Shown: positions 1,080-35,055, counted from the first letter of the stretch. The stretch: DNA of 37,628 nt from Thermoleophilaceae bacterium (GCA_050997195.1 JBPCRE010000182.1:1-37628), one strand, 5' to 3'. Program-made: numbers and translations. Notes: generated from the sequence alone by a model not told the origin.

Positions 1080-1093
1080 ACTGACCAATCAGT
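1080..1093. promoter_or_regulatory. Palindrome ACTGA-CCAA-TCAGT in the divergent promoter region upstream of the acyl-CoA dehydrogenase operon; candidate repressor operator
   Basis: Read directly: gACTGAccaaTCAGTc at 1079-1094, 65 nt upstream of the GTG at 1158 and overlapping a TTGACT word at 1077-1082. The half-sites and spacing are identical to the palindrome at 24305-24318. Confidence 0.45.
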
Positions 1094-1157
1094 CGGGCGC
1101 GACGGGAGCTCCCGAGCCTCCGGCTGCCCTCCGATCCTGAATCCGAAGGAGAACCCC

Positions 1158-2339: not shown

Positions 2340-2354
2340 GCGCATGGTCCGGTA

Positions 2355-2387
2355 TCCGGAGGGGCCGCCCGTGACGCGACCCCTCCG
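2355..2387 (+). terminator. GC-rich hairpin just after the ACAD stop (9-bp stem CCGGAGGGG/CCCCTCCGG, 15-nt loop); possible attenuator or RNA structure, with no U-tract
   Basis: Read directly: ccggagggg at 2355-2363 pairs with cccctccgg at 2379-2387. It lies between the stop at 2339 and the PadR coding signal. Confidence 0.25.
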
Positions 2388-2463
2388 GTCCGGGTCATGG
2401 GAGATCGCCTGTCCGGGGTCGGCTCTTCGGGGCGCCCGGCCCGCATGTCAGCATCACCGACCG

Positions 2464-3060: not shown

Positions 3061-3101
3061 CCTTCGCGCCCTTCCCAAGGCTCGATCGACCGGGAGGTCG
3101 C

Positions 3102-15762: not shown

Positions 15763-15863
15763 ACTTCTTCTCGGCGCAGGCGGGACAAGGGGCCATCGTA
15801 ATCGGGGTGCGGTACGGCGCGTGGGCGATAAGCAAGTCGAACGGTTGGGGCGGGTGAACGCCC

Positions 15864-20764: not shown

Positions 20765-20822
20765 CGGCGGCCAGCGTAGATGAGTGCCTGGATCTTCCCG
20801 ATCGGGGACTACTCTCCCGCCG

Positions 20823-21602
20823 ATGCCAGCAGCGTCCGCGGGCCTGAACGAGGAACTGCTCACCCTCCTCGAGGCCGTGCAGAGCGGCGCCGTCCCGCCC
20901 GCGAACGCGCTCGAGCGGCTGGCCGGGCTGCCCTTCCGGGACCTTGGCTTCGCCCGTCTCGACACCCACCGCGAGCTCCGGCAGGGAGCCCCCGAGGCCG
21001 TGCTCGCCGAGGGCAAGAGCCCCGACGAGATCTCGGGAATAGTGCGCGCCCTGCTCGAAGAGGACGCGGGCAGCATCCTCGTGACCCGGGCCGACGCCGA
21101 CGCTCGGGCCGCGGTGCGTCGCGCCGCCCCCGAGGCGGAGGAGGACGAACGCGGACGCCTCGCCTGGGTGCGCCGGCGCGTGCCCGTGGCGTGCGGGCGG
21201 GTGGCGATCGTCTCGGGCGGGACCTCGGACGGGCCGGCGGTCCGGGAGGCGGCCGTGCGGGCCGAGCTCCTCGGTGCGTCGCTCACCGTGCACGAGGACG
21301 CCGGCGTGGCCGGGATCCACCGGCTGGCCCCGACCCTCGAGGATCTTCGCGAGGCCGACTGCGTGGTGGTGGTGGCCGGCCAGGACGCGGCCCTTGCCTC
21401 GGTGGTGGGAGGCCTCGTCGCGGCGCCGGTGATCGCCGTGCCCACCAGCACGGGCTACGGCGCGGCCTTCGGCGGGGTGACCGCGCTGCTCGCCATGCTC
21501 AGCTCGTGCGCGGCCGGCGTGGCCGTGGTCAACATCGACGACGGCTTCGGGGCCGGCACCATCGCCGCGCGGATCGCTCGTGCGGCGGGAGGTGCGAGGT
21601 GA
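20823..21602 (+). CDS. larB: LarB, NPN-cofactor biosynthesis carboxylase/hydrolase (PurE-like)
   Basis: Track ORF 20784..21602, start at GTG 20784 or ATG 20823. Motifs: DLGFARLDTHRELRQGAPEAV, VAIVSGGTSDGPAVREAAV, VVVAGQDAALASVVGGLVAAPVIAVPTSTGYGA, CAAGVAVVNIDDGFGAG. Confidence 0.88.
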   Translation: MPAASAGLNEELLTLLEAVQSGAVPPANALERLAGLPFRDLGFARLDTHRELRQGAPEAVLAEGKSPDEISGIVRALLEEDAGSILVTRADADARAAVRRAAPEAEEDERGRLAWVRRRVPVACGRVAIVSGGTSDGPAVREAAVRAELLGASLTVHEDAGVAGIHRLAPTLEDLREADCVVVVAGQDAALASVVGGLVAAPVIAVPTSTGYGAAFGGVTALLAMLSSCAAGVAVVNIDDGFGAGTIAARIARAAGGAR

Positions 21603-22831
21603 GCTCCGACGGCGCGCGGGGCGACGCCCCCCTCCTCTACGTCGACTGCGTGGCCGGGGTGGCCGGAGACATGCTCCTGGGCGCCCTGATAGACGCGGGA
21701 GCGAGCGCCGACGGGGTACGGGCGGGCCTCGAGGGCCTCGGCGTCGCGGGGTTGACGCTTCGTGTGGAGCGCACCGAGCGCCACGCGATCGGTGCCGTCC
21801 GGGCCGAGGCGCGAGCCGAGGACCGCCAGCCCCATCGCCGCTTCGCCGAGGTGCGGGAGCTGCTGGCCGGCGCCGCCCTTCCGGAGCGCGTGCGCGCACG
21901 AGCCCACGCCACCTTCCGGCGCCTCGCGGAGGCCGAGGGGAGGGTCCACGGGATCTCTCCCGAGCGGGTGGACTTCCACGAGGTGGGAGCCGTGGACGCG
22001 ATCGCCGAGGTGTGCGGCGTGGCGCTCGCCCTCGAGGATCTCGGGGTGGAGCGGGTGGTGTGCTCGCCGCTGCCCGCACCTCGGGGCTTCGTGGGATCGG
22101 CGCACGGGCGGCTTCCGCTCCCCGCCCCGGCCACGCTCGAGATCCTGGTGGGCGCGCCGCTCCACGGGGTCGAGCTCGACGTCGAGCTCGTCACGCCCAC
22201 CGGCGCGGCGCTCGTGGCCTCGCTGGCCGAGGGCTACGGCCCGATGCCGCCGCTGCGCATGGGCGCGATCGGGTACGGCGCGGGGTCCCGCGAGCTCGAG
22301 GCGCTGCCCAACGTGGTCCGCGTGATCCTCGGCGAGCCGCTCGGCTCCACCACCGAGGAGGGTCGCGTCTCGCTCGTGGAGACCAACCTCGACGACCTCC
22401 TTCCGGAGCACGTTCCCGACGCGGCGGACGCCTGCTTCGCCGCCGGGGCCCTCGACGTGTGGAGCGCTCCAGCGCAGATGAAGAAGGGGCGCCCGGGAAC
22501 GGTGCTCTCCGCCCTCGTTCGCCCCGCCCGGGAGTGGGCGGTGGCCGAGGCCATGATGCGCGAGACGGGGAGCCTCGGCGTGCGGGTGGCCGAGCTCAGG
22601 CGCCACGAGCTCGAGCGTCACTGGCGCACGGTGGACGTGGGAGGCCACAGCGTCCGCGTGAAGGTCGGGCGCCTCGGGGGCGCCGAGACGAGCGTGGCAC
22701 CCGAGCACGACGACTGCGTCCGCGTGGCGCAGGCCACGGGCGCCAGCGTGCGCTCGGTGTGGGCTGCGGCGCTCGCGGCGGCCCAGTCCGCCCACGTGCC
22801 CGGCTCGCCGGAGGAGGCCCTCCGTGCCTGA
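21599..22831 (+). CDS. larC: LarC, nickel-insertion (cyclometallase) protein, single uninterrupted ORF
   Basis: Part of track ORF 20780..22831. GTG 21599 overlaps the larB TGA. Motifs: LYVDCVAGVAGDMLLGALIDAG, VDFHEVGAVDAI, PVTPTGAAL-like block, MKKGRPG. Confidence 0.9.
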   Translation: MSSDGARGDAPLLYVDCVAGVAGDMLLGALIDAGASADGVRAGLEGLGVAGLTLRVERTERHAIGAVRAEARAEDRQPHRRFAEVRELLAGAALPERVRARAHATFRRLAEAEGRVHGISPERVDFHEVGAVDAIAEVCGVALALEDLGVERVVCSPLPAPRGFVGSAHGRLPLPAPATLEILVGAPLHGVELDVELVTPTGAALVASLAEGYGPMPPLRMGAIGYGAGSRELEALPNVVRVILGEPLGSTTEEGRVSLVETNLDDLLPEHVPDAADACFAAGALDVWSAPAQMKKGRPGTVLSALVRPAREWAVAEAMMRETGSLGVRVAELRRHELERHWRTVDVGGHSVRVKVGRLGGAETSVAPEHDDCVRVAQATGASVRSVWAAALAAAQSAHVPGSPEEALRA

Positions 22832-23672
22832 GCTCGACGCCCGCCGCGCGGCCATCGAGGAGCGCCTCAGCGGCCTCGGCGGTGCGGTGGTGGCCTTCTC
22901 GGGCGGCGTGGACTCCTCACTGGTGGCCGCGCTCGCCGTCCGGGCGCTCGGGTCGCGAGCGCTGGCCGTGACCGCCGTGTCTCCCGCGCTCGCCTCCGGT
23001 GAGCTCGAAGGGGCGCGGGAGGTGGCTCGGGCGGTGGGCATCGCGCACGAGTCCGTGTCCACCGAGGAGCTGGCGCGCGAGGCCTACCGCCGCAACGGGC
23101 CTGACCGCTGCTACCACTGCAAGACCGAGCTCTACGACGTGCTGGCCGCCCTCGGGGCGACGCGCGGATACCCCGCGCTGCTCTCGGGAGCCAACGCCGA
23201 CGACGCGGGGGACTGGCGCCCCGGCCTGCGGGCGGCGGCGGAGCGGGGGGTGATCCACCCGCTGCTCGAGCAGGGCCTCGGCAAGACGGAGGTGCGCGAG
23301 CTGGCTCGGCGTCTGGCGCTGCCGAGCGCGGCCAAGGCCGCGAGCCCCTGCCTCGCCTCGAGGATCCCCTACGGCACGCCGGTTGACCCCGGCACCCTCG
23401 AGCGCATCGACCGCGCGGAGCGGGGCGTGCGGGCGCTCGGGTTCGGCGTGCTCAGGGTCCGCCACCACGGAGCCCTCGGGCGCGTGGAGCTCGGGGCCGA
23501 GGAGCTCGCGCGCGGACTCGAGCCTCGCGTCCGCGCGGCCATCGTCGAGGCGGTGCGCGCGGGCGGCTACGCGGAGGCGGAGGTGGCCGAGCGGCCCTTC
23601 CGCTCGGGCTCGTTGAACGACGCGCTCACCCGGTCGGGTGCGGGTCGAGCGCCCGGCGCAGCAGCGCGATGA
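22824..23672 (+). CDS. larE: LarE, ATP-dependent sulfur-insertion protein (PP-loop ATP pyrophosphatase)
   Basis: GTG 22824 overlaps the larC end by 8 nt. PP-loop VAFSGGVDSS, CYHCK, and SPCLASRIPYG (equivalent to the L. plantarum sulfur-donor Cys). Confidence 0.9.
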   Translation: MPELDARRAAIEERLSGLGGAVVAFSGGVDSSLVAALAVRALGSRALAVTAVSPALASGELEGAREVARAVGIAHESVSTEELAREAYRRNGPDRCYHCKTELYDVLAALGATRGYPALLSGANADDAGDWRPGLRAAAERGVIHPLLEQGLGKTEVRELARRLALPSAAKAASPCLASRIPYGTPVDPGTLERIDRAERGVRALGFGVLRVRHHGALGRVELGAEELARGLEPRVRAAIVEAVRAGGYAEAEVAERPFRSGSLNDALTRSGAGRAPGAAAR

Positions 23673-24273
23673 GCGCGTCGCGGTGGCGGGCCACGGCCTC
23701 CGGCGACAGCGGATCCTCAGCCGTAAGCTCCCGGCGGAAGCGGGCGTCCGAGAAGTAGGTGAGCACCGTGCCGTAGCAGAGCTGCATGACCTCCAGCGGA
23801 TCGTGCGGGCGCAGCCGGCCGGCCGCGGTCTCGCGCTCGAGGAACGCCACCGCGCGCTCGAGGAAGGGGCGCAGGAACTCGGCGATGGCGTCGGCGAGGC
23901 GCCCCCCGCCCTCGATGGCCTCGCGGCGAACGATGCGCACGAAGTCCTCGTGGTGCTCGAAGAAGGAGAACGCCATCTCGATCAGGCGCGCCACCTGGTC
24001 GAAGCCGTCGAGCTTGTTCTCGATGGCTCCGTGGATCTCACCCGCCCAATCGGCCACCGCGGTCTCGATGACCGCGGCGTAGAGCCCTTCCTTGGACGAG
24101 AAGTAGTAGAGCAGCGTGGGGTGGCGCAGTCCGGCTCGCTCGGCGATGTCCTGGAGGCGCGCGCCGTCGAAGCCGCGGTTCGCGAACTCGGCGCGGGCCT
24201 CGATCAGGAGGCGCTGCCGGGAGCTGGCCTCGGGTGCGACGCCAGGGTCCTCGGGGGTTACGGCTCCCTCCAT
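23626..24273 (-). CDS. TetR-family transcriptional regulator
   Basis: C-terminal 215 codons of track ORF 23626..25461, from ATG 24273. HTH: RLLIEARAEFANRGFDGARLQDIAERAGLRHPTLLYYFSSKEGLY. Its 3' end overlaps the larE 3' end by 47 nt (convergent). Confidence 0.9.
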   Translation of the reverse strand: MEGAVTPEDPGVAPEASSRQRLLIEARAEFANRGFDGARLQDIAERAGLRHPTLLYYFSSKEGLYAAVIETAVADWAGEIHGAIENKLDGFDQVARLIEMAFSFFEHHEDFVRIVRREAIEGGGRLADAIAEFLRPFLERAVAFLERETAAGRLRPHDPLEVMQLCYGTVLTYFSDARFRRELTAEDPLSPEAVARHRDALIALLRRALDPHPTG

Positions 24274-24304
24274 GTCGCCGCAGCCTACGGAAGATCGCCG
24301 CTCG

Positions 24305-24318
24305 ACTGACACGTCAGT
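24305..24318. promoter_or_regulatory. Palindrome ACTGA-CACG-TCAGT between the divergent TetR gene and the reductase operon; candidate TetR operator
   Basis: Read directly. It lies in the 60-nt spacer between the ATG at 24273 (-) and the GTG at 24334 (+). It is the same motif as at 1080-1093. Confidence 0.5.
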
Positions 24319-24333
24319 AGAGATTGGGCTAGG

Positions 24334-26655
24334 GTGCTCGCGCGGCCGATGGGGGAGGAGCGGGTACAGCGGATAGCGGAGCTCCTCGAGGACAGGAGGC
24401 TGTTGCTCACGGGCGCCTCGGGCTTCGTGGGCAAGGGCGTGCTCTCCGCCTGCCTCGGGGCCGTGCCGGGGCTCCGCGAGATCCGCCTGCTGCTGCGCGC
24501 CACCGACGACGCCGACGCTCTGCGCCGCCTGCGCGAGGAGATCCTGCCGCAGACCCCCTTCTCCACCGGCGAAGCCGCCGACCTCGACGCCGCCATCGCC
24601 GGGGGCCGGCTGAGCGCCGTGGCGGCCGACCTGGCCGTGGACGGGTTCGGTCGAGCGACGCCGCTCGATCTCTCCGACGTCGACGTGGTGGTGCACTGCG
24701 CGGCCTCGGTGTCCTTCGAGGATCCGCTCGACCGCATGATCGAGCTGAACGCCCTGGGCGCCGGTCGGCTCGTGGACGCACTGCGGGCGAGCGGCTCGGA
24801 GCCCACCTTCGTCCACGTCTCGACGGCCTACGCGGCCGGCGAGCGCACGGGCCTCGTGCTCGAGCGCCCGTCCGGCAACACGCCGGCCGAGCCGGCGGTG
24901 GACCTCCGCGCCGAGCTCGAGGCGGCCCGCGCCTGGCGAAGCGATCTCGAGGCCGAGTCGCGGCTGCCCGCCCACCAGCACCGTTTCGTGCGCGACGCCC
25001 GAGAGGAGATCGGCCCGGCCGGGGCGCCCGCGGTGGGCGCTCGCGCCGAGGAGGCGCGGCGCGCGTGGGTGCAGACCGAGCTGCGCGAGCGCGGACGCGA
25101 GCGCTGCCGCGCCCTCGGATGGTCCGACGCGTACTCGTTCTCCAAGGCCCTGGGCGAGCGCGTGGTGGTCGAGCGCGGACTCGAGCGGCTCACCATCGTG
25201 CGGCCGAGCGTGATCGAGTCGGCGCTTCGCCACCCCCACGCCGGCTGGCTCGAGGGACTCAAGGTGGCCGATCCGGTGATCCTCGCCTACGGGCGCGGGC
25301 TGTTGCCGCGCTTCCCCGGCAACGGCTCGGTGCGCTTCGACATCGTGCCCGTGGACCTCGTGGCCAACGCCTGCATCGCCGCGGCGGCGCACCCGCCGAG
25401 CACGAGCCCCTGCGTCGTGAACGTGGCGAGCGGCAGCCGCCGCCCGCTCACGCTCGGGCACGCGGTGGAGATGATCGCCGACTACTTCCGCGAGCGCCCC
25501 TTCCCGGACGACGACGGTGTGGCCGTGGACATCAAGGCGCTTCCCCTCATCCCGTTCTCACGCGCCACCCGGGCCATCGACCGTGGCGAGCGCGCCGTTC
25601 GCCTCGGCCGGCGGATCGTGGGCCGCGTGCCGGTTCCGAACGCCGACGCGGTCGAGCGGCGGCTGCACCGCGAGCGCCGCTCGCTCGAGCGCCTGCGCCG
25701 GCTCTCGGAGCTCTACGCGCCCTACGGCGAGCTCGACTGCGTGTTCGACGACCGCCACGCCACCGAGCTCGAGGCACGCCTGCACCCCGAGGACCGCGCG
25801 CGCTTTTCCTTCGACGTGGCCGACATCGACTGGGAGGAGTACTTCAAGGACATCCACCTCCCGGCCCTGCGCGCGCTCGTCGGGGTGCCGCGCGTGGGCG
25901 TGCGCCCGGTCGCGCCCGAACGGGACGCTCGCCCGGCGCCCATCGAGGACGGTCCTCCGGGGCTTGCCTTCTTCGACGTGGAGGGCGTGCTGCTCGACAC
26001 CACGGTGGCCCACTTCTACGCGTGGCTTCGCACCCGCGACATGCCCCGGGGCGACCGCGCCCTGTGGTCGCTCGGCCTGGCCGCCCGGGCGCCGGGATAC
26101 CTCGTGGCCGACCGCCGCTCGCGCTCGGCCTTCAACCGCCGCTTCTACCGCAACTACCGTGGCCTGCCGGCCGCCGAGCTGCGCGAGCAGGCCGAGGAGG
26201 CGCTGTCGGAGTTCATCCTCCCGCGCGTGCACCAGGAGGCCGTGCGGCGCATCCGCGCGCACCGCCGCCGCGGCGATCGGGTGGTGCTGATGACCGGTGC
26301 CCTCGACTTCCTCGTCGCCCCCCTGCGCTTCCTGGCCGACGACCTCGTGGCGGCGCGCCTCACCGAGCGGCGCGGGGCCTTCACCGGGGAGCTGGCCGAG
26401 CCGCCGCTCACCGCCGACGGCCGCGCCTCGCTGGCCGCGCGGATGGCGGCCGAGCACGGCGCCGAGCTCGGCCAATGCCACGCCTCCGGCGACTCCTCAT
26501 CGGACCTGCCCATGCTCGAGCTCGTCGGCCATCCCCACGCGGTGAACCCCGACTTTCGCCTGAGCCGCGAGGCCCGGCGCCGGCGCTGGCCCATCCTCGA
26601 GTGGGACACCGAGCCGGGCGCCCGTACGAGGCCGCGCGTGGGGGCGGGCGCGTAG
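24334..26655 (+). CDS. Fusion protein: fatty-acyl-CoA/ACP reductase-type SDR (NAD_binding_4 / male-sterility domain) + HAD-IB family hydrolase
   Basis: Track ORF 24334..26655 (alternative ATG at 24349). N-terminal part: LLLTGASGFVGKGVL, VVVHCAASVSF, HVSTAYAAG, YSFSKALGE, IVRPSVI. C-terminal part: LAFFDVEGVLLDTT, VVLMTGALDF, HASGDSSSDLPML, AVNPD. Confidence 0.85.
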   Translation: MLARPMGEERVQRIAELLEDRRLLLTGASGFVGKGVLSACLGAVPGLREIRLLLRATDDADALRRLREEILPQTPFSTGEAADLDAAIAGGRLSAVAADLAVDGFGRATPLDLSDVDVVVHCAASVSFEDPLDRMIELNALGAGRLVDALRASGSEPTFVHVSTAYAAGERTGLVLERPSGNTPAEPAVDLRAELEAARAWRSDLEAESRLPAHQHRFVRDAREEIGPAGAPAVGARAEEARRAWVQTELRERGRERCRALGWSDAYSFSKALGERVVVERGLERLTIVRPSVIESALRHPHAGWLEGLKVADPVILAYGRGLLPRFPGNGSVRFDIVPVDLVANACIAAAAHPPSTSPCVVNVASGSRRPLTLGHAVEMIADYFRERPFPDDDGVAVDIKALPLIPFSRATRAIDRGERAVRLGRRIVGRVPVPNADAVERRLHRERRSLERLRRLSELYAPYGELDCVFDDRHATELEARLHPEDRARFSFDVADIDWEEYFKDIHLPALRALVGVPRVGVRPVAPERDARPAPIEDGPPGLAFFDVEGVLLDTTVAHFYAWLRTRDMPRGDRALWSLGLAARAPGYLVADRRSRSAFNRRFYRNYRGLPAAELREQAEEALSEFILPRVHQEAVRRIRAHRRRGDRVVLMTGALDFLVAPLRFLADDLVAARLTERRGAFTGELAEPPLTADGRASLAARMAAEHGAELGQCHASGDSSSDLPMLELVGHPHAVNPDFRLSREARRRRWPILEWDTEPGARTRPRVGAGA

Positions 26656-26657
26656 TC

Positions 26658-27812
26658 GTGCTCGGCCTCGAGTACTCGCCCTCGCCGGTGCGCCACACCG
26701 CGGCGCGGGTGTCCCGGCGTGCGGGAACGAGTGCGCTGCGCCTGCGCGAGGACCTCCGCCCGCCGCGGCTCCCGGCGCCCGAGTGGCTCTCGGTGCGGCC
26801 GCGCCTCTCGGGCATCTGCGGCTCCGACCAGGCGCTCGTGACCGGCGAGGCTTCGCCCTACCTCGCCGCGCTCACCTCCGGGCCGTTCGTGCCGGGTCAC
26901 GAGGTGGTGGGTGAGGTGGCCTCGGGCTCCCGCCGCGGGCAGCGCGTGGTGGTGGAGCCGGCGCTCGGGTGCGAGGCGCGCGGCATCCGCCCACCCTGTC
27001 CCGAGTGCCTCGAGGGCCTCCACGCCCTGTGCCGGAACGTGACGGCGGGATCGGTGTCGGCGGGCCTGCAGATCGGCTTCTGTCGCGACACCTGCGGGGG
27101 GTGGAGCGAGGGGCTCACCGCTCACGCCTCCCAGCTCCACGCCGTGCCCGATTCGCTCTCCGACGAGGACGCCGTGCTCGTCGAGCCGCTGGCCTGCGCG
27201 CTGCACGCCGCGCAGCGTGCGGCGCCACAGCCCGGCGAGGTGCTCGCCGTGATCGGGGCGGGCACCATGGGCCTGCTCGCGGTGGCCGCCCTGCGCGATC
27301 TCGCTCCGGAGGCCACCGTGGTGGCGCTCGCCAAGCACCCCGGCCAGGAGCTCGAGGCCCGCCGCCTGGGAGCCGACCACACCGCTCGCTCGGGGCGGCT
27401 GCACCTCGAGGGGGCACGACTCACCGGGGCGCGTCGACTGGTGGGCCACCTCGGTCGCGAGCTGCTGCTCGGCGGCTTCGACGCCGTGCTCGACTGCGTG
27501 GGCTCGGGCGCGTCGCTCGAGAGCGCGATCACCGCGGTGCGCCCGCGCGGGCGGGTCGTGCTCGTGGGCATGCCCGGCAGCGTGAGCGCCGACCTGGCGC
27601 TGGCGTGGCAGCGCGAGGTCGAGATCAAGGGCGCCTACGGCTACGCGCGGGACTTCCCCACCGCCCTCGAGCTGGCCGGGCGCATCCGCCCCGGTCGCCT
27701 GGTGGCGCGCGGCTGGCACCTGCGCGAGTACCGCGAAGCGCTCGCGGACGCTCCGCGGGCGGCGCGATCGGGGCGCGTGAAGACCGTGTTCGACCTGCGG
27801 AGCGAGACGTGA
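26658..27812 (+). CDS. Zinc-dependent medium-chain alcohol/polyol dehydrogenase (MDR family)
   Basis: Last 384 codons of track ORF 25065..27812. GTG 26658 lies 2 nt after the upstream stop. Motifs: GICGSDQ, GHEVVGEV, the structural-Zn cysteines CEARGIRPPCPECLEGLHALC, and VIGAGTMGLLAV. Confidence 0.85.
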   Translation: MLGLEYSPSPVRHTAARVSRRAGTSALRLREDLRPPRLPAPEWLSVRPRLSGICGSDQALVTGEASPYLAALTSGPFVPGHEVVGEVASGSRRGQRVVVEPALGCEARGIRPPCPECLEGLHALCRNVTAGSVSAGLQIGFCRDTCGGWSEGLTAHASQLHAVPDSLSDEDAVLVEPLACALHAAQRAAPQPGEVLAVIGAGTMGLLAVAALRDLAPEATVVALAKHPGQELEARRLGADHTARSGRLHLEGARLTGARRLVGHLGRELLLGGFDAVLDCVGSGASLESAITAVRPRGRVVLVGMPGSVSADLALAWQREVEIKGAYGYARDFPTALELAGRIRPGRLVARGWHLREYREALADAPRAARSGRVKTVFDLRSET

Positions 27813-29473
27813 GCGTGGTCGGACGTCTGCGAGCCTCCGCGCCGCCGGCGGTCGAGCGGCCGCCCGGTGGACGCTCGCGGCGCGTCCCGCCCGCCGTCGA
27901 GCGCGAGGCCTCGGTGGTCGAGGTCACCGACGTCTCGCCGCCCACCCTCTTTCACTCCGGCGATTCCATGCGCCTCGAGCGCCTGCCGGTGGGCTCGCGC
28001 ATCGTCTACCCCCCGCCGCCCCTGAAGGGCCTCGCCGACCTGGATGCGGCCATCGCCGCGGCGCTCGACGCGCCGCTCGGCATGGACCCCCTCGACGCGC
28101 TGCTCCGGCCCGGGATGCGCCTCACCATCGCCTTCGACGACATCTCGGTGCCGCTCCCGCCCATGCGTTCCCCGGACGTGCGCCAGCTCGTGATCGAGCA
28201 GGTGCTCGAGCGCGCCTACCGCGCCGGAGTGGACGACATCCACCTCATCGCGGCGCTCGCCCTGCACCGGCGGATGACCGGGGCGGAGCTGCGCGAGACC
28301 GTCGGCGCGCGGGTGTTCGACGCCTTCTACCCGGACCGCCTCTACAACCACGACGCCGAGGATCCGGGTGGGAACACCCCGATGGGCGAGACCGACGCGG
28401 GCGAGGTCGTGACGCTGAACCGCCGTGCGGCCGAGTCGGACCTCCTCGTCTACGTCCACCTCGTGACCGCCACCCTGCAGGGCGGGCCGAAGTCGGCGGC
28501 CATCGGTCTCGGCACCTACGGATCCATCTCGGCCCATCACAACGTGCACACGCTGCGCCACTCGCGCTCCTTCACCGACCCGCCCAACAGCGCCCTGCAC
28601 GCATCCTCGAACCGCCAGGGCGAGGTGATCGAGTCCGCCGTGCCCGTCTTCCACGTGGAGACCACCGTGAACAACGACATGTTCGCCGGGCCGCTGCGGT
28701 TCCTGGCCAGGCCCGAGCAGCGCTGGAGCGCTCGCGAGCAGGCCACGTTCGCCGGGATGAAGCGATTCCTCGACCGGGCTCCGGTGCGGATGCGGCGCAC
28801 GATGTTCCAGCGCCAGCGTGCTCCCTTCGAAGCGATCGGCGTGGCCGCAGGGGCGATCGAGCCCGTGCACGAGGCCATCCACGCCCGGGCATCGGAGCAG
28901 CAGGGGGTGCTGGTCGAGGGTCAGTCCGACATCGTGACCGCGGGGCTTCCCTACATCGGGCCCTACAACGTGAACTCGATCAACAACCCGGTGCTCGTCA
29001 TGTGCCTCGGGCTCGGGTACTTCTTCAACATGTACCGGGGCAAGCCGCTGGTGCGCCCCGGCGGGGTGATGATCTTCACCCATCCGGTGGAGCGCGAGTT
29101 CCACCCCGTCCACCACCCCTCCTACATCGACTTCTACGAGGAGGTGCTGGCCGAGACCACCGACCCCGTGGAGATCGAGCGCCGCTTCGAGCGCTCCTAC
29201 GCCGAGGACGAGTGGTACCGCCACCTCTACCGCACCAGCCACGCCTACCACGGCGTGCACCCCTTCTACATGTGGTACTGGGGCGCGCATGCGCTCGAGC
29301 ACGTGGGGGAGACCATCTTCGTGGGCGGAGATCCGGAGGCCTGCCGGCGCATGGGCTTCCGCCGGGCCGACACCATGCGCGACGCGCTCGAGATGGCCGA
29401 GCACGTGGTGGGGCGCTCACCATCGCTCACCCACTTCCACTGCCCGCCCATCTTCTACGCCGAGGTCACGTGA
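27809..29473 (+). CDS. Divergent LarA-family (lactate racemase-like, NPN-dependent) protein of unknown substrate
   Basis: Part of track ORF 26969..29473. GTG 27809 overlaps the upstream TGA; alternatives are GTG 27815 and ATG 27968. By eye it aligns with L. plantarum LarA: LTIAFDDISVPLP versus IVIISSDHTRPVP; LIAALALHRR versus LVATGFHRP; VHLVTATLQGGPKSAAIGLGTYGSISAHH versus [29 protein letters not shown]. Confidence 0.78.
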   Translation: MSVVGRLRASAPPAVERPPGGRSRRVPPAVEREASVVEVTDVSPPTLFHSGDSMRLERLPVGSRIVYPPPPLKGLADLDAAIAAALDAPLGMDPLDALLRPGMRLTIAFDDISVPLPPMRSPDVRQLVIEQVLERAYRAGVDDIHLIAALALHRRMTGAELRETVGARVFDAFYPDRLYNHDAEDPGGNTPMGETDAGEVVTLNRRAAESDLLVYVHLVTATLQGGPKSAAIGLGTYGSISAHHNVHTLRHSRSFTDPPNSALHASSNRQGEVIESAVPVFHVETTVNNDMFAGPLRFLARPEQRWSAREQATFAGMKRFLDRAPVRMRRTMFQRQRAPFEAIGVAAGAIEPVHEAIHARASEQQGVLVEGQSDIVTAGLPYIGPYNVNSINNPVLVMCLGLGYFFNMYRGKPLVRPGGVMIFTHPVEREFHPVHHPSYIDFYEEVLAETTDPVEIERRFERSYAEDEWYRHLYRTSHAYHGVHPFYMWYWGAHALEHVGETIFVGGDPEACRRMGFRRADTMRDALEMAEHVVGRSPSLTHFHCPPIFYAEVT

Positions 29474-29493
29474 GGTTCGCCCGGGGAGGGCGC

Positions 29494-30276
29494 ATGCTCG
29501 AGCGCCTGGCCGGCACCCCCGCACCGCGCCGGCGCCGGCCGTCGGGGCGGTGGCGCACGGTGCGTTCCGGACCGGACCCCTGGTCGGCCTCGGCCCCCCA
29601 GACGCCCGACCAGGCGTGGCTGCGCGGCCGCGCTCCCTCGCTGGCCCGCGACCTGCTCCAGGAGGGGCTGCTGTTTCCCGCCACCCGCTTCGTGGCCCAT
29701 CCGCGGGTCGAGGGAGCGGAGGACCTCGCCCACGCCCCGCAGCCGGCGGTGATTGCCCCCAACCACGGCTCGGACATCGACACGCCGCTCGTGCTCGGCG
29801 CCCTTCCCCGGGCCTGGCGATCGCGCACGGTCGTCGGGGCGGCGGCCGATCGCTTCTACCGCCGGCGCTCCTACGCGGTGATGAGCGGACTCTGGATCAA
29901 CACCTTCCCCTTCGATCGCTCGGGCGAAGGTCGCGGGGCCGCGGCGGCGGCCGAGTTCCTGCGCGAGGGCCACAACGTCCTCCTCTACCCGCAGGGCACA
30001 CGGTCCGCCGGCCAGCTCCAGGGCTTTCGCTCGGGCGTGGCCCGGCTCTGCGTGGCCACCGGCGCGCCGCTCGTGCCCGTGCACGTGGGCGGCACCTCGC
30101 TCATCATGCCCAAGGACCGCGGGCTCACGCGACGGGGCCGGGCCACGGTGCGCTTCGGAGCGCCGCTCATCCCCTTCGCGGGGGAGCGGCCGGAGGACTT
30201 CCTGGAGCGCACGCGCGAGGCCCTCGCGGCGCTGGCGCCTCGGAGCGCTCACGGGCGAGCGCGAATCGCGACCTGA
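29494..30276 (+). CDS. 1-acyl-sn-glycerol-3-phosphate acyltransferase-like (PlsC/LPLAT)
   Basis: Part of track ORF 29002..30276. ATG 29494 lies 4 nt after GGAGG; the alternative GTG 29470 overlaps the LarA-like TGA. HX4D block VIAPNHGSDIDTP, and LLYPQGTRS, ATGAPLVPVHV. Confidence 0.85.
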   Translation: MLERLAGTPAPRRRRPSGRWRTVRSGPDPWSASAPQTPDQAWLRGRAPSLARDLLQEGLLFPATRFVAHPRVEGAEDLAHAPQPAVIAPNHGSDIDTPLVLGALPRAWRSRTVVGAAADRFYRRRSYAVMSGLWINTFPFDRSGEGRGAAAAAEFLREGHNVLLYPQGTRSAGQLQGFRSGVARLCVATGAPLVPVHVGGTSLIMPKDRGLTRRGRATVRFGAPLIPFAGERPEDFLERTREALAALAPRSAHGRARIAT

Positions 30277-31220
30277 TGGGGCCCCTCGCCGCCTCCGCTA
30301 CCGTCGGTTCCATGCCCACGCTAATCATTCGTGAGTACACCGACCCCGGCTGCCCATGGGCGTTCTCGGCCGAGCCCTCCCGCTACCGGCTGCGCTGGCT
30401 GTTCGGAGAGGAGATCGCGTGGCACCGCACCATGGTCGGCCTCTCCGAGCGCCCGGAGGACGTGGCCGCTCGGGGCTTCACACCGGACCGTGAGGCCAAG
30501 GCTCTGGCCGCCATGCAGCGCCGCTTCGGGATGCCCATCGATCCGCTCGAGCGTCCGCGCAACGCCGCGACCATGCCGGCCTGCCGGGCCGTGGTGGCAG
30601 CTCGCCTGCACGCTCCGGAGCGGGAGGTTGCCCTCCTGCGCCGCCTACGAGTCAACGCGATGGCGGGCAACCTGCTCGACGCGCCGGAGACCCTCGCCCT
30701 CTCCGCCGGCGAGGCCGGGCTCGATCCCCTCGAGCTCGAACGCTGGGCCGGGGAGGCGGAGACCGCCGAGGCTCTCAGCGCCGACATGGCCGCCGCACGC
30801 GCGCCTTCTCCGGCGGCTCTCGCCCTCGACCACAAGCTGGCCGACGCGGCCGGCGGGCGCCGCTACACGTGCCCGAGCTACGAGATCGCCCGAGCCGACG
30901 GCCCGGCCCGCCTCGATCTCCCCGGCTTTCAGCCCGCGGACGCCTACGAGGCGGCCATCGCCAACCTCGCGCCCGAGCTCGTGCGCCGGGGAAGGCCCGA
31001 GAGCGTCGAGGAGGTGCTCGCCTGGGCCGGAGAGCCGCTGGCCACCGCCGAGGTGGCGGCCGTTCGCGAGACGACCATGATCGAGACGCGCGAGGCCCTG
31101 GCCCGAGTCGCCCGGGAGCGCCCGGTAGGCGCCGACGGGTACTGGACGCTCCCGGGTGCCGCCACCGACGAGGCCCTCGGGGTGGCGGAGCCCGCCCAGC
31201 TTCGCGCTCCGCTCGCCTGA
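30276..31220 (+). CDS. DsbA-like thioredoxin-fold protein with a single-Cys CPWA active-site motif
   Basis: Part of track ORF 29289..31220. ATG 30276 overlaps the upstream TGA by 1 nt; the alternative is ATG 30312 (MPTLIIREYTDPGCPWAFSAEP). Confidence 0.65.
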   Translation: MGPLAASATVGSMPTLIIREYTDPGCPWAFSAEPSRYRLRWLFGEEIAWHRTMVGLSERPEDVAARGFTPDREAKALAAMQRRFGMPIDPLERPRNAATMPACRAVVAARLHAPEREVALLRRLRVNAMAGNLLDAPETLALSAGEAGLDPLELERWAGEAETAEALSADMAAARAPSPAALALDHKLADAAGGRRYTCPSYEIARADGPARLDLPGFQPADAYEAAIANLAPELVRRGRPESVEEVLAWAGEPLATAEVAAVRETTMIETREALARVARERPVGADGYWTLPGAATDEALGVAEPAQLRAPLA

Positions 31221-33426: not shown

Positions 33427-33459
33427 GGTACCGGGGCCGCACGCCTTCAGCACCTCAGC

Positions 33460-34209
33460 TCAGAGAAACAGGTCCTCCTCCGGTGCTCGCCGGAGCGCGT
33501 CCGCGCCCCGCCCGTCCTCGACGCTCACGTAGCGACCGAGGCCGCGCACGAGCACGGCGGGCTCGGCGGAGTCCTTGGCCCGGGCGAGGTCGGCGGCGGC
33601 CGCGGCGGCGTCGGCCACCGCGATCACCGTGGCCCCGAGCGCTCGGCCCCGAGCGTCCGCGCGCCCGCGCCAGTCGTCCAAGGGGGTGAGTCCGGCCACG
33701 CCGATGGCCACGTCGACCTGGCCGAGTCGCCAGACCCGCCCGAACGAGTCGGTGAGGAGCACCGCGGGGCGCACGCCGCGCAGGGCGGCGATGCTCCGGC
33801 GCAGGGCGCGGGCCGAGGCGTCGGGATCCTCGGGGAGGAGGATCACCTGCTCGGGCCGAGCCGCGTTCGAGGCGTCGACGCCCGCGTTGGCGCACACCAT
33901 GCCGTGGTGGGTGCGCGACACGATCACCCCCCGCTCGGCGCGCAGCACCTCGGCCGACTCGTCGAGCACGACCTGCACCATGCGGGGATCCTTGCCGTGG
34001 GGCTCGGCGAGCTCCCTCGCCCGGGCCGTGGGCTTCACGGCCGCGAGCGCGCGCACGCGGCCCTCGCTCTTCGACACCACCTTGTGGGCCACGACGAGGA
34101 GGTCTCCGTCGCCGAGGTCGCGCGGCGCGGCGTGGGCGAGGAGCGCCCCGAGATCGTCGCACTCGCTCACCTCCGGCAGGCCCTCGAGCGCGAGAACCTC
34201 GATGCGCAG
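33460..34209 (-). CDS. cofE: F420-0:gamma-glutamyl ligase, single-domain CofE type; start codon non-canonical or unresolved
   Basis: Track ORF 33460..34170 (GTG) extended upstream. The frame stays open and encodes LRIEVLALEGLPEV, the conserved CofE N-terminal strand. The only candidate starts are CTG 34209 and ATC 34203. Motifs: VVAHKVVSKSEGR, VCANAGVDASN, LLTDSFGR. Confidence 0.82.
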   Translation of the reverse strand: MRIEVLALEGLPEVSECDDLGALLAHAAPRDLGDGDLLVVAHKVVSKSEGRVRALAAVKPTARARELAEPHGKDPRMVQVVLDESAEVLRAERGVIVSRTHHGMVCANAGVDASNAARPEQVILLPEDPDASARALRRSIAALRGVRPAVLLTDSFGRVWRLGQVDVAIGVAGLTPLDDWRGRADARGRALGATVIAVADAAAAAADLARAKDSAEPAVLVRGLGRYVSVEDGRGADALRRAPEEDLFL

Positions 34210-34259
34210 GGCCTCGTTCCCCCGCGCGGAGGGGAGCGGTGCGGCCTCCTCGCGCGAGC

Positions 34260-34970: not shown

Positions 34971-35055
34971 GGGTTGCCGACTGTACCGACCGTCGTAGTG
35001 CCCGAGGCGGCTGCTCGGTCCGGCGCGGCTCCCGGAGCGGTCGTCTCCGTTCGCT

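What the first reader, a model, noticed from the sequence alone, without database searches (positions are those of the whole stretch)
27809..29473. The LarA homologue keeps the cofactor-tethering Lys/His pattern but apparently lacks the carboxylate-binding Arg, and its C-terminal half is very different and His-rich
This rests on an alignment by eye against L. plantarum LarA, recalled from memory.

Conserved features:
- ALALHRR matches the ATGFHR block that holds catalytic His108.
- GGPKS...SAHH matches GGRKS...MANH. The Lys-to-His spacing is 16 residues, consistent with Lys184 (covalent NPN tether) and His200 (Ni ligand).
- An upstream His in YVHLV sits 11 residues before the Lys. His174 sits 10 residues before Lys184.

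Divergent features:
- The SDHTRP block, which contains the substrate-carboxylate-binding Arg75, reads DDISVP here (Arg replaced by Val).
- The C-terminal half (NNPVLVMCLGLGYFFNMYRGKPLVRPGGVMIFTHPVEREFHPVHHPSYIDFYEE...YHGVHPFYMWYWGAHALEH) has little visible resemblance to LarA and is rich in His and aromatic residues.

Inference: the enzyme probably binds NPN, but its substrate pocket differs from the 2-hydroxy-acid racemases.
Basis: partly seen in the sequence, partly recalled or inferred. Interest (0 to 1): 0.75.

Follow-up and report, generated by a model that had tools for sequence, protein, structure and literature searches.

The report
ElbC-type LarA homologue, lipid operon
This gene belongs to a known but functionally unsolved branch of the nickel-cofactor lactate-racemase family, and its operon shows it is the counterpart of ElbC from the bacterial ether-lipid gene cluster rather than a hydroxy-acid racemase.

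Summary
ORF 27809-29473 (+) is a real 554-aa LarA-superfamily protein. It scores above the curated cut-off of NCBIfam NF052592, the LarAH14/15/16 family.

Asp111, His153, Lys228 and His244 match LarA Asp72, His108, Lys184 and His200. Arg75 is replaced by Val114. The YQxxK motif is absent. The His- and aromatic-rich C-terminal half is a divergent LarA C-domain, closest to the single-histidine structures 9q3k and 9q3j.

The proposed His174 equivalent (His217) does not hold. It misaligns by one or two residues and is Asn in 88 of 121 homologues.

These traits were already tabulated for group 14 in 2020, so the residue pattern is not new.

The new element is context. The gene is translationally coupled in a TetR-controlled operon of FAR-HAD, Zn-ADH, LarAH and acyltransferase, next to larBCE. 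The core of that operon recurs in most of 80 actinobacterial loci examined. It is a split version of the Myxococcus elbA-E ether-lipid operon, and the protein is 48% identical to ElbC (MXAN_1529), so far "unknown function".

Likely role: a nickel-pincer hydride-transfer step on a lipid precursor. The mechanism is inferred, not shown.

The parts
27809..29473 (+). LarA homologue, 554 aa, LarAH group 14 / ElbC type (the finding)
   Evidence: ORF and translation. Pfam Lar_N 1.9e-32. NF052592 829.5 bits, above the 740 cut-off. AF2 pLDDT 94.4. Foldseek best hit 9q3k_A, TM 0.86. 48% identity to M. xanthus MXAN_1529 over 524 aa.
28136..28153 (+). DDISVP (residues 110-115). Asp111 = LarA Asp72. Val114 sits in the place of the phosphate/carboxylate-binding Arg75.
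   Evidence: Alignments. Position 114 is Leu in 89 and Val in 31 of the 120 aligned homologues. The published group-14 column for R75 reads I/L.
28265..28267 (+). His153, equivalent of catalytic His108
   Evidence: Invariant in 121/121 homologues. Aligned to His108, and to His115 of LarA_Sp.
28451..28495 (+). Strand plus loop YVHLVTATLQGGPKS (residues 215-229), ending in the NPN-tether Lys228. The loop is shortened, so no His174 equivalent exists. This protein has the lineage-specific 'variant B' loop (His217, Pro227).
   Evidence: A four-residue gap against LarA_Lp and LarA_Sp. Variant counts A 88, B 30, C 3. Variant B is monophyletic. The AF2 model has a strand at 212-219 and a helix starting at 228.
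28535..28540 (+). His243-His244. His244 is the equivalent of the Ni ligand His200.
   Evidence: His244 is invariant in 121/121. It lies 16 residues after Lys228, as in LarA_Lp (184/200) and LarA_Sp (195/211).
28961..28987 (+). Loop PYNVNSINN (residues 385-393) in place of the canonical YQxxK substrate motif. Tyr386 aligns with active-site Tyr307 of LarA_Sp.
   Evidence: Pro385, Tyr386, Asn387, Ser390 and Asn393 are at least 119/121 conserved. Alignment to LarA_Sp His306/Tyr307. hhalign places Tyr294 opposite Asn393, at low confidence. In the model the loop spans 382-393 and the helix starts at 394.
29081..29302 (+). His/aromatic-rich C-domain core (residues 425-498): HP...HHPSY...YRHLYR...AYHGVHPFYMWYWGAH...H. 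His481 and His484 align with His398 and the active-site His401 of LarA_Sp.
   Evidence: Conservation. Composition 12.3% His. Alignment to 9q2u. Active-site role of His401 from PMC12611868.
26658..27812 (+). Zn-dependent medium-chain dehydrogenase of the polyol-dehydrogenase type. Its stop codon overlaps the LarAH start (GTGA).
   Evidence: Pfam ADH_N and ADH_zinc_N. NCBIfam weak hits to idonate, inosose and threonine dehydrogenases. Junction sequence. Present in 51/80 related loci.
24334..26655 (+). Fatty acyl-CoA/thioester reductase (NAD_binding_4 + Sterile) fused to a HAD-IB phosphatase
   Evidence: Pfam. TIGR01490 109 bits, above the 98 cut-off. Residues 13-516 match ElbD 8-543 (4e-44). Residues 545-756 match ElbB (39% identity, 7e-41). 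Reductase part found in 73 and HAD part in 76 of 80 loci.
29470..30276 (+). PlsC/AGPAT-type acyltransferase. Its start GTG overlaps the LarAH stop (GTGA).
   Evidence: Pfam PF01553. Junction sequence. 34% identity to the acyltransferase domain of ElbD, E=3e-14. Present in 76/80 loci.
23626..24309 (-). Divergent TetR-family regulator
   Evidence: Pfam TetR_N and TetR_C_29. Divergently placed upstream of the operon in 42/80 loci.
20784..23672 (+). larB (about 20784-21602), larC (about 21602-22831) and larE (22824-23672): NPN cofactor biosynthesis
   Evidence: NCBIfam LarB 245.9 bits (cut-off 175), LarC1 200.3 (cut-off 90) plus LarC2 128.6 (cut-off 50), LarE 289.9 (cut-off 150). Pfam. Adjacent to the operon also in L007, L008, L059 and L073.

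Best explanation
SHOWN.
- The ORF encodes a complete two-domain LarA-superfamily protein of the LarAH14/15/16 family.
- It keeps the residues that hold and covalently tether the nickel-pincer nucleotide (Asp111, Lys228, His244) and one catalytic histidine (His153).
- It lacks the second catalytic histidine because the loop is shortened. It also lacks Arg75 (Val114) and the YQxxK substrate motif.
- Its C-domain is the divergent, His-rich type seen in the single-histidine structures LarA_Sp and LarA_Bw.
- It is the third gene of a tightly packed operon with overlapping stop/start codons: FAR-HAD, Zn-ADH, LarAH, acyltransferase. A divergent TetR gene and larBCE lie next to it.
- That operon is a split version of the Myxococcus xanthus elbA-E ether-lipid operon. 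The protein is the counterpart of ElbC (48% identity, one gap). FAR matches the ElbD N-domain, HAD matches ElbB, and the acyltransferase matches the ElbD C-domain.

INFERRED.
- It is an NPN holoenzyme that does not racemise a 2-hydroxy acid. Instead it carries out a hydride-shuttling, redox-neutral step on a glycerol-phosphate-derived lipid intermediate of an ether-lipid-type pathway.

MOST SPECULATIVE STEP (about 0.2-0.25 on its own).
- His153 deprotonates the C2-OH of the glycerol-phosphate backbone and NPN takes the C2 hydride.
- NPN then returns the hydride to the oxocarbenium formed from the hemiacetal between the sn-1 OH and the fatty aldehyde made by FAR. The product is 1-O-alkyl-dihydroxyacetone phosphate.
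- The Zn-ADH (an SDR, ElbE, in Myxococcus) then reduces the ketone, the acyltransferase acylates sn-2, and the HAD domain removes the phosphate.
For: Family and fold:
- NF052592 829.5 bits, above the 740 cut-off.
- hhalign 99.9% to canonical LarA.
- AF2 pLDDT 94.4, pTM 0.91.
- Foldseek 9q3k_A TM 0.86 and 9q3j TM 0.84, against 0.73-0.78 for 5huq, 6c1w and 9eia.

Cofactor:
- Asp111, His153, Lys228 and His244 are invariant in 121 homologues.
- larB, larC and larE are above cut-off in the window and adjacent in four other loci from two orders.

Pocket change:
-.
- Published group-14 residue table.
- Frankia LarAH14 was inactive on seven hydroxy acids.

Operon:
- GTGA overlaps at both junctions.
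- In 80 loci from Thermoleophilia, Acidimicrobiia, Actinomycetes and Dormibacterota, FAR is found in 73, HAD in 76, the acyltransferase in 76 and ADH in 51.
- No other neighbour is conserved except lineage housekeeping genes.
- LarAH is the best conserved protein of the operon, about 60% identity against 30-47% for its neighbours.

ElbC link:
- P0271 is MXAN_1529. It lies between a HAD gene and a 1470-aa FAR-ACS-ACP-AT protein, flanked by two SDR genes. This matches the published elbA-E operon, in which elbC is 'unknown function' (PMC9131029).
- Identities.
- An ElbD-like protein also sits next to a family member in L087.

Chemistry:
- An ElbD-dependent i15:0 aldehyde was detected in M. xanthus but no fatty alcohol, and the steps up to the alkyl ether are unknown.
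Against: - There are no biochemical or genetic data on this protein or on ElbC itself. In M. xanthus an elbB insertion, which should be polar on elbC, was partly rescued by elbD alone. This argues that ElbC is not strictly essential there.
- Orthologues in the same operon have lost His153 and Lys228, and in two of three cases His244 as well: P0128 in L081, P0132 in L083, P0151 in L085. These are the published 'group 16' type. They keep much of the C-domain motif set, so an NPN-dependent step cannot be indispensable for the operon in every lineage.
- The window operon has no acyl-CoA synthetase or ACP domains, and it has a Zn-ADH where Myxococcus has SDRs.
- I found no report of ether lipids in Thermoleophilia or Acidimicrobiia.
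- The model's coordinates could not be inspected, so no distances to a docked NPN were measured.
Confidence: 0.6

Rival explanations
1. It is an NPN-dependent epimerase or isomerase acting on a soluble polyol phosphate or head-group precursor. Examples would be inversion at C2 of glycerol phosphate or of a sugar phosphate, as speculated for the related group-17 enzymes. The product would then be acylated by the neighbouring acyltransferase. On this view the enzyme supplies a building block and does not make an ether bond.
For: - The closest solved structures (9q3k, 9q3j) come from genes in glycolytic or sugar contexts and carried an unidentified ligand of about 316 Da, modelled as a phosphorylated aldose.
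- The neighbouring ADH resembles polyol and polyol-phosphate dehydrogenases.
- A HAD phosphatase is always present in the operon.
Against: - Lys76 of LarA_Sp, which binds phosphate, is Val or Leu here, and His306 is Pro.
- No sugar kinase, transporter or glycolytic gene is conserved nearby.
- The conserved partners are lipid enzymes homologous to ElbD and ElbB.
Confidence: 0.15
2. The protein's essential role in the operon does not depend on NPN. It could be a scaffold or lipid-binding partner of the reductase and acyltransferase. Alternatively it could be a catalyst that uses the conserved C-terminal histidine cluster, possibly with another metal. NPN binding would then be ancestral or accessory.
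For: - Of 75 sequences compared (74 full-length 50%-cluster representatives plus the query), 46 lack the Asp/His/Lys/His set. They still keep His425 (37/46), His436 (33/46), Tyr474 (39/46), Arg475 (36/46), His481 (38/46) and Trp489 (44/46).
- Three such proteins sit in the same FAR-HAD-(ADH)-LarAH-AT operon, and a fourth (P0169, L086/L087) lies between a HAD gene and an ElbD-like protein.
- Desguin 2020 already judged group 16 unlikely to use NPN.
Against: - In this protein and its 120 closest relatives the NPN residues are invariant.
- larBCE are adjacent in this window and in four other loci.
- The degenerate proteins show relaxed conservation overall and score below the NCBIfam cut-off.
Confidence: 0.12
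3. It is a conventional LarA-type racemase or epimerase for an unusual carboxylate, such as a long-chain 2-hydroxy fatty acid or its thioester. The product would then be reduced by FAR and ADH to a diol and acylated.
For: - All characterised LarA homologues invert C2 of 2-hydroxy acids.
- NCBIfam names the family 'hydroxyacid isomerase'.
- The hydrophobic Val/Leu at position 114 would suit a lipid chain.
Against: - Two-way racemisation needs two catalytic histidines and only one is present.
- The carboxylate-binding Arg75 and the Tyr/Gln/Lys motif are absent.
- Frankia LarAH14 showed none of the seven activities tested.
- The operon is homologous to an ether-lipid operon, not to a hydroxy-acid pathway.
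Confidence: 0.1

Closest known systems
LarAH group 14 of Desguin et al. 2020 (e.g. Frankia sp. Franean1_4168 'LarAH14', Rubrobacter Rxyl_2107, Acidimicrobium Afer_1430); NCBIfam NF052592 'LarAH14/15/16 family'
   Same: - The same NCBIfam model is passed above its cut-off.
- The residue signature matches: Asp72 kept, Arg75 replaced by I/L/V, His108 kept, His174 deleted, Lys184 and His200 kept.
- The gene context matches: acyltransferase, HAD, Zn-ADH and thioester reductase.
   Different: - This protein belongs to a monophyletic sub-clade with a different pre-lysine loop: YVH..A.LQGGPKS instead of YVNxNLVxMDGGHKS. None of the group-14 or group-15 sequences printed in the parts of the published table that I read has this loop.
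- The group's function is unknown, and the Frankia enzyme was inactive on seven substrates.
ElbC (MXAN_1529) of the Myxococcus xanthus elbA-E ether-lipid operon; LarAH group 15
   Same: - 48% identity over 524 residues with one gap, including the whole His-rich C-domain.
- The NPN residues are kept.
- Both are flanked by homologues of the same partners: HAD, FAR and AGPAT-type acyltransferase.
   Different: - In Myxococcus, FAR, acyl-CoA synthetase, ACP and acyltransferase are one 1470-aa protein (ElbD), HAD is separate, and two SDRs flank the operon.
- Here FAR is fused to HAD, the acyltransferase is separate, there is no synthetase or ACP, and a Zn-ADH replaces the SDRs.
- larBCE are adjacent here but not within 10 kb of elbC.
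- ElbC's own role has never been tested.
LarA_Sp / LarA_Bw (PDB 9q2u, 9q3k, 9q3j), single-histidine LarA subfamily, group 17 (Gatreddi et al. 2025)
   Same: - Best structural match, TM 0.84-0.86.
- The divergent C-domain type is shared. Tyr307, His398 and His401 correspond to Tyr386, His481 and His484. The dimer-interface Arg431 corresponds to Arg513.
- Only one catalytic histidine, and an unknown non-lactate substrate.
   Different: - Only 20-22% identity.
- Group 17 has Asn in a longer loop at the His174 site, Lys at the Arg75 site and His306. Here the loop is four residues shorter, and positions 114 and 385 are Val and Pro.
- The context there is glycolysis and sugar metabolism, not lipid.
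Lactiplantibacillus plantarum lactate racemase LarA (PDB 5huq, 6c1w)
   Same: - Lar_N domain and overall two-domain fold, TM 0.73.
- Asp72, His108, Lys184 and His200 are conserved.
- Depends on LarB/C/E.
   Different: - Arg75, His174 and Tyr294/Gln295/Lys298 are not conserved.
- About 120 extra residues, and only 17-18% identity.
- No sequence-level match in the C-domain without profiles.

Membership tests
LarA superfamily (NPN-dependent enzymes, Pfam Lar_N / DUF2088) | Lar_N domain and two-domain LarA fold | tested here: met
   Pfam Lar_N 112.5 bits, above the 23.3 cut-off. hhalign 99.9% over 381 columns. All 19 Foldseek hits with E<=0.001 are LarA-fold entries: LarA family proteins plus 4nar (T. 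maritima Q9WYS3, the GntE2 structure of Desguin 2020).
LarA superfamily (NPN-dependent enzymes, Pfam Lar_N / DUF2088) | Lys that forms the thioamide tether to NPN (Lys184) and His that ligates Ni (His200), 16 residues apart; Asp72 at the ribose | tested here: met
   Lys228, His244 and Asp111 align and are invariant in 121 homologues.
LarA superfamily (NPN-dependent enzymes, Pfam Lar_N / DUF2088) | NPN biosynthesis genes larB, larC and larE in the genome | tested here: met
   All three lie at 20784-23672 and score above NCBIfam cut-offs.
LarA superfamily (NPN-dependent enzymes, Pfam Lar_N / DUF2088) | Actual loading with the nickel-pincer cofactor | not testable with these tools
   Needs protein purified after co-expression with LarB/C/E, followed by Ni analysis, UV-visible spectroscopy or mass spectrometry.
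Canonical 2-hydroxy-acid racemases/epimerases (LarA, Sar, Mar, Hgr, GntE) | Two catalytic histidines (His108 and His174) | tested here: not met
   His153 is present. His174 falls in a gap or opposite Leu218/Val219. His217 is Asn in 88/121 homologues.
Canonical 2-hydroxy-acid racemases/epimerases (LarA, Sar, Mar, Hgr, GntE) | Arg75 binding the NPN phosphate and the substrate carboxylate | tested here: not met
   Val114 here. The position is Leu or Val in all 120 aligned homologues. The placement is the same in three alignments and in the published table.
Canonical 2-hydroxy-acid racemases/epimerases (LarA, Sar, Mar, Hgr, GntE) | Tyr294-Gln295-x-x-Lys298 at the start of helix alpha11 | tested here: not met
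   No YQxxK motif. hhalign pairs these residues with Asn393, Val397 and Leu400. The published alignment gives S/-/N. The model has a 12-residue loop PYNVNSINN before helix 394-405. Exact equivalences are uncertain, but no alignment gives a Lys.
LarAH14/15/16 family (NCBIfam NF052592; Desguin 2020 groups 14-16) | Full-length match above the curated cut-off | tested here: met
   829.5 bits against 740, covering profile positions 2-519 of 520.
LarAH14/15/16 family (NCBIfam NF052592; Desguin 2020 groups 14-16) | Group-14 gene context: acyltransferase (COG0204), HAD (COG0560), Zn-ADH (COG1063), thioester reductase (COG3320) | tested here: met
   All four are in the same operon. Published context frequencies. 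Recurrence in 80 loci.
Single-histidine LarA subfamily of Gatreddi 2025 (group 17, LarA_Sp / LarA_Bw) | Invariant Asn at the His174 position; Lys at the Arg75 position; His306/Tyr307/His401 pocket | tested here: not met
   Asn185 of LarA_Sp falls in a four-residue insertion that is absent here. Lys76 corresponds to Val114 and His306 to Pro385. Only Tyr307 (Tyr386) and His401 (His484) are kept. It is the structural nearest neighbour but not a member (20-22% identity).
ElbC of the elb ether-lipid biosynthesis operon | Orthology to MXAN_1529 | tested here: met
   48% identity over 524 aa with one gap. Both hit NF052592 best. Reciprocal best-hit status was not formally tested.
ElbC of the elb ether-lipid biosynthesis operon | Clustering with ElbD-type reductase and acyltransferase and an ElbB-type HAD | tested here: met
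   FAR matches ElbD 8-543 (4e-44). HAD matches ElbB (7e-41). The acyltransferase matches ElbD 1266-1388 (3e-14). M. xanthus locus.
ElbC of the elb ether-lipid biosynthesis operon | Acyl-CoA synthetase and ACP domains of ElbD; SDR ElbE | tested here: not met
   No AMP-binding or PP-binding domain in the operon. The ADH has no hit to ElbA or ElbE.
ElbC of the elb ether-lipid biosynthesis operon | Production of alkyl-ether lipids by the host | not testable with these tools
   Needs lipid analysis. I found no report for Thermoleophilia or Acidimicrobiia.

The most novel reading that the evidence does not exclude
ElbC-type LarA homologues (LarAH groups 14/15, including this protein) are the missing ether-bond-forming enzyme of the AGPS-independent bacterial ether-lipid pathway. 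They would use the nickel-pincer cofactor to move a hydride within the substrate, from C2 of the glycerol-phosphate backbone to the aldehyde-derived carbon. This would be the first NPN reaction that is not a hydroxy-acid racemisation or epimerisation. It would imply that ether-lipid synthesis is nickel-dependent and widespread in soil and marine Actinomycetota: relatives of this LarAH occur in at least 592 GTDB species, and the operon recurs in the 80 best loci examined.
Probability: 0.25. Interest if true: 0.85.

Novelty: new member of a known kind. Interest (0 to 1): 0.55.

Why it matters

The value lies in joining two literatures that, in the papers I could search, do not cite each other. 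LarA researchers list groups 14-16 as "unknown function". Ether-lipid researchers list ElbC as "protein of unknown function" and say the steps from fatty acid to alkyl ether are unknown.

Showing that these are the same family gives a concrete, testable candidate for a nickel-dependent step in bacterial ether-lipid synthesis. The family occurs in a conserved reductase / HAD / acyltransferase operon across hundreds of actinobacterial species, sometimes next to larBCE. It also predicts that abundant soil groups (Solirubrobacterales, Acidimicrobiia) make such lipids, which bears on the use of alkyl glycerol ethers as environmental biomarkers.

Tried and rejected
1. His217 as the second catalytic histidine. 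Rejected as a family feature: it is misaligned by one or two residues in three alignments and is Asn in most homologues, including ElbC and Frankia LarAH14. A lineage-specific role, swapping with His227, stays open. The swap traces to one monophyletic clade, so it counts as a single event.

2. Natural fusions as evidence of functional linkage (P0063 ADH+LarAH, P0107 LarAH+acyltransferase). P0063 lies on a contig with fragmented gene calls, and the genes overlap by GTGA, so one indel would fuse them. I treat both fusions as probable assembly artefacts.

3. Other conserved neighbours. De novo clustering of ORFs from 80 loci gave only Ddl, a Mur ligase, aconitase, an amidase and a LysR regulator. 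These reflect lineage synteny in Acidimicrobiia and are not part of the module.

4. Literature search for a published function, or for a LarA-ether lipid link. Nothing found.

5. Residue-level structural superposition and NPN docking. Not possible, because model coordinates are not exposed. Only DSSP, pLDDT and Foldseek scores were available.

6. 'LarAH15' of the 2024 JBC paper (Phytophthora GntE) is an enzyme number, not group 15 of 2020. It is not evidence that this family epimerises gluconate.

7. Antisense ORF 27641-29404 (-). A high-GC artefact; the frame plot supports the + strand.

Full report
**What is in the sequence**

Coordinates 27809-29473 hold an ORF on the + strand that starts with GTG and ends with TGA, giving 554 residues. 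The window is about 73% G+C, so many spurious ORFs overlap it. A codon-position GC plot assigns this stretch to the + frame of the ORF. Homologues share its N-terminus (MSVVGR...), which supports the GTG start.

The start codon overlaps the stop of the upstream gene (GTGA at 27809-27812). The stop overlaps the start of the downstream gene (GTGA at 29470-29473). The gene before those ends 3 nt ahead of the next start.

**Family**

- Pfam finds only the Lar_N domain, residues 67-255, E=1.9e-32.
- NCBIfam matches end to end with NF052592, "NPN-dependent hydroxyacid isomerase, LarAH14/15/16 family": 829.5 bits against a curated cut-off of 740. Models for the characterised lactate, malate and LarAH10 racemases score only 50-69 bits, all on the N-domain.
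- Against PDB sequences the best matches are 9q2u/9q3k and 9q3j. [quoted passage not shown] L. plantarum LarA matches only in the N-domain.

**Residue equivalences**

I used three independent alignments: phmmer against 5huq, a 30-sequence family profile against PDB, and a profile-profile hhalign of 84 family members against four canonical LarA sequences taken from the 2020 supplement (99.9% probability, 381 columns).

All three agree on the following:
- Asp111 = Asp72
- Val114 = Arg75
- His153 = His108
- Lys228 = Lys184
- His244 = His200

Among 121 close homologues the Asp, His, Lys and His are invariant. Position 114 is Leu (89) or Val (31), never Arg.

His174 has no counterpart. The loop between strand 212-219 and the helix that starts at Lys228 is shorter than in LarA_Lp, by four residues in two alignments and by one in the third. 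The alignments place His174 in the gap or opposite Leu218 or Val219.

It is therefore not a conserved second catalytic base.

In the C-domain no alignment recovers Tyr294, Gln295 and Lys298. The region is an invariant loop, P385-Y-N-x-N-S-x-x-N393, ahead of helix 394-405. Tyr386, His481 and His484 align with Tyr307, His398 and His401 of LarA_Sp. Tyr307 and His401 line that enzyme's ligand density.

**Fold**

An AlphaFold2 model built from the 84-sequence alignment is confident: mean pLDDT 94.4, pTM 0.91, with only residues 1-22 disordered.

Foldseek against the PDB gives these TM-scores (normalised by target length):
- LarA_Sp 9q3k_A: 0.86, rmsd 3.0 Å
- LarA_Bw 9q3j: 0.82-0.85
- canonical LarA, Sar and Mar structures: 0.67-0.78

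Nothing outside the LarA fold scores significantly. So the "very different" C-terminal half is a divergent LarA C-domain of a type solved in 2025.

**What was already known**

Desguin et al. 2020 (PMC7583248) clustered 354 LarA homologues into 25 groups. Their Dataset S2 lists for group 14 (Frankia, Kribbella, Nocardioides, Acidimicrobium, Ilumatobacter, Rubrobacter):
- D at Asp72
- I/L at Arg75
- H at His108
- gaps at His174 and Phe175
- K at Lys184
- H at His200

The function is given as "Unknown". Their Table S1 gives the group-14 context as acyltransferase 88%, HAD 88%, Zn-ADH 88% and thioester reductase 50%. Frankia LarAH14 was purified and showed none of seven activities. Gatreddi et al. 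2025 restate that groups 14 and 15 lack the His174 equivalent.

Its inference, NPN binding with a different pocket, is right but not new.

**Neighbourhood in the window**

| Coordinates | Strand | Gene |
|---|---|---|
| ~20784-21602 | + | LarB |
| ~21602-22831 | + | LarC |
| 22824-23672 | + | LarE |
| 23626-24309 | - | TetR |
| 24334-26655 | + | fatty-acyl/thioester reductase (NAD_binding_4 + Sterile) fused to a HAD-IB phosphatase |
| 26658-27812 | + | Zn-dependent polyol-type dehydrogenase |
| 27809-29473 | + | the LarA homologue |
| 29470-30276 | + | PlsC/AGPAT-type acyltransferase |

Assignments come from Pfam and NCBIfam. The three Lar biosynthesis proteins pass their NCBIfam cut-offs.

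**Conservation of the operon**

A scan of one genome per GTDB species found at least 592 species with a relative. I analysed the best 80 loci. They come from Thermoleophilia, Acidimicrobiia, several orders of Actinomycetes and one Dormibacterota MAG.

tblastn with the window's proteins found the reductase in 73 loci, HAD in 76, the acyltransferase in 76, ADH in 51, a divergent TetR in 42, and larBCE adjacent in 4. Most misses are at contig ends, except for a real ADH-less variant.

The LarA homologue is the best conserved protein of the module, about 60% identity where its neighbours are 30-47%. De novo clustering of all ORFs in these loci revealed no further module-specific partner.

**The ElbC link**

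One family member (P0169) lies between a HAD gene and a 1600-aa protein with the domains NAD_binding_4, Sterile, AMP-binding, PP-binding and Acyltransferase. That is the architecture of ElbD, the key enzyme of the Myxococcus xanthus ether-lipid (elb) operon.

The 2020 dataset places MXAN_1529 in LarAH group 15. I retrieved that protein (P0271, "hypothetical protein MXAN_1529") and its locus. The gene order is:
- SDR
- HAD
- Lar_N protein
- 1470-aa FAR-ACS-ACP-AT protein
- SDR

This is exactly the published elbA-E operon. In it elbB is the HAD, elbD the multidomain enzyme, elbA and elbE the SDRs, and elbC "a protein of unknown function" (PMC9131029).

Identities between the window and the M. 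xanthus proteins:
- The window protein is 48% identical to ElbC over 524 residues with a single gap.
- The window's reductase domain matches ElbD residues 8-543 (E=4e-44).
- Its HAD domain matches ElbB (39% identity, E=7e-41).
- Its acyltransferase matches ElbD residues 1266-1388 (E=3e-14).

The window operon is thus a rearranged elb operon. It lacks the acyl-CoA synthetase and ACP domains, and a Zn-ADH stands in for the SDRs.

In the searchable literature the LarA papers never mention lipids or ethers. The ether-lipid papers never mention LarA, DUF2088 or the nickel-pincer cofactor.

**How it probably works**

- Shown: the protein has what is needed to bind and tether NPN, it has one general base, and it sits with lipid enzymes.
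- Established knowledge: NPN in LarA enzymes accepts a hydride from the carbon bearing a hydroxyl group while a histidine deprotonates that hydroxyl. Returning the hydride from the other face needs the second histidine (PMC12611868).
- Inference: with one histidine and no carboxylate-binding arginine, this enzyme most likely oxidises a secondary alcohol transiently and returns the hydride elsewhere. Desguin et al. suggested this for single-His homologues.

In M. xanthus the ElbD pathway yields an aldehyde but no detectable fatty alcohol, and the steps to the alkyl ether are unknown. A scheme that uses every gene product is:
1. The reductase makes a fatty aldehyde.
2. The aldehyde forms a hemiacetal with the sn-1 hydroxyl of glycerol phosphate in the LarA-type active site.
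3. NPN moves the C2 hydride to the derived oxocarbenium, giving 1-O-alkyl-dihydroxyacetone phosphate.
4. The ADH or SDR reduces the ketone.
5. The acyltransferase acylates sn-2.
6. The HAD domain dephosphorylates.

This mechanism is a hypothesis, about 0.2-0.25 likely. The broader statement, an NPN-dependent step in an elb-type lipid pathway rather than a hydroxy-acid racemase, I put at about 0.6.

**Evidence that cuts the other way**

- I compared 74 full-length representatives of 50%-identity clusters plus the query, 75 sequences in all. Forty-six have lost one or more of the Asp/His/Lys/His set while keeping much of the C-domain motif set.
- Three of these (P0128, P0132, P0151) still sit in the same operon. 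They correspond to published group 16, which was judged unlikely to use NPN. Either the NPN step is dispensable in some lineages, or the C-domain carries a function of its own.
- In M. xanthus an elbB insertion, expected to be polar on elbC, was partly rescued by elbD alone.
- I found no report of ether lipids in the taxa that carry the actinobacterial operon.

**Verdict**

- The feature is a new member of a known but functionally unassigned LarA group.
- Interest is moderate (0.55). The residue pattern is published, but the ElbC equivalence and the breadth of the operon turn an open question in bacterial ether-lipid synthesis into direct experiments.

Noticed in passing
window 28451-28495 (residues 215-229): The loop before the tether lysine comes in mutually exclusive forms among 121 homologues. 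Form A is YVNxNxVxMDGGHKS (88 sequences, also in ElbC and Frankia LarAH14). Form B is YVHx[VI]xAxLQGG[P/T/Q/A]KS (30 sequences, including this protein). Form C is HVSxKLTPMQGGRKS (3 sequences). His217 and His227 never co-occur. The form-B clade is monophyletic, so this is one evolutionary event. Whether the histidine has 'moved' in space could not be checked without model coordinates.
   Followed up: partly
L081 7634-9253; L083 7001-8563; L085 7001-8518; L086 3513-5075 / L087 590-2152: Family members that have lost the catalytic His and the tether Lys (and most of them the Ni-ligand His) remain in the same reductase-HAD-(ADH)-LarAH-acyltransferase operon, or next to an ElbD-like protein. Examples are P0128 (H153R/K228A), P0132, P0151 and P0169. 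Of 75 sequences compared (74 representatives plus the query), 46 are degenerate, yet they keep much of the C-terminal His/Tyr/Arg/Trp motif set.
   Followed up: partly
L082 8001-10463 (P0063); P0107: Apparent natural fusions ADH+LarAH (820 aa) and LarAH+acyltransferase (791 aa). P0063 lies on a contig whose other genes are fragmented, and the genes overlap by GTGA. The fusions are probably frameshift or assembly artefacts, not evidence of linkage.
   Followed up: partly
window 12127-13119 (+), 13200-14123 (+), 14755-15780 (-): [quoted passage not shown] The SDR has only a weak match to ElbE (E=5e-5). Whether these belong to the same lipid pathway is unknown.
   Followed up: partly
window 31249-35988: An F420 biosynthesis cluster lies directly downstream: FbiC (31249-33426, +), CofE (33460-34170, -), CofC (34260-35135, -) and CofD (35056-35988, -). 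It is not conserved next to the LarAH operon in other loci.
   Followed up: no
window 30300-31220 (+): The coding-like ORF after the acyltransferase has no Pfam or NCBIfam match. Its probable start reads MPTLIIREYTDPGCPWAF, suggestive of a DsbA/thioredoxin-like fold. It was not found in the 80 related loci.
   Followed up: no
window 1077-5064: Fatty-acid beta-oxidation genes lie at the left end of the window: acyl-CoA dehydrogenase (1077-2339), a PadR regulator (2344-3060), and 3-hydroxyacyl-CoA dehydrogenase plus enoyl-CoA hydratase (3102-5064).
   Followed up: no
literature / NCBIfam NF052592: Naming pitfalls. 'LarAH15' in the 2024 JBC paper is a Phytophthora gluconate 2-epimerase and is unrelated to 'group 15' of the 2020 paper, on which the NCBIfam name seems to be based. 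The NCBIfam product name 'hydroxyacid isomerase' asserts a substrate class for which there is no evidence in this family.
   Followed up: partly
L001-L080: Two operon variants exist. One has the Zn-ADH between HAD and LarAH (51 loci). The other lacks it, so FAR-HAD directly precedes LarAH (mostly Acidimicrobiales). In Acidimicrobiia the module sits near ddl and a mur ligase gene, probably by lineage synteny.
   Followed up: partly
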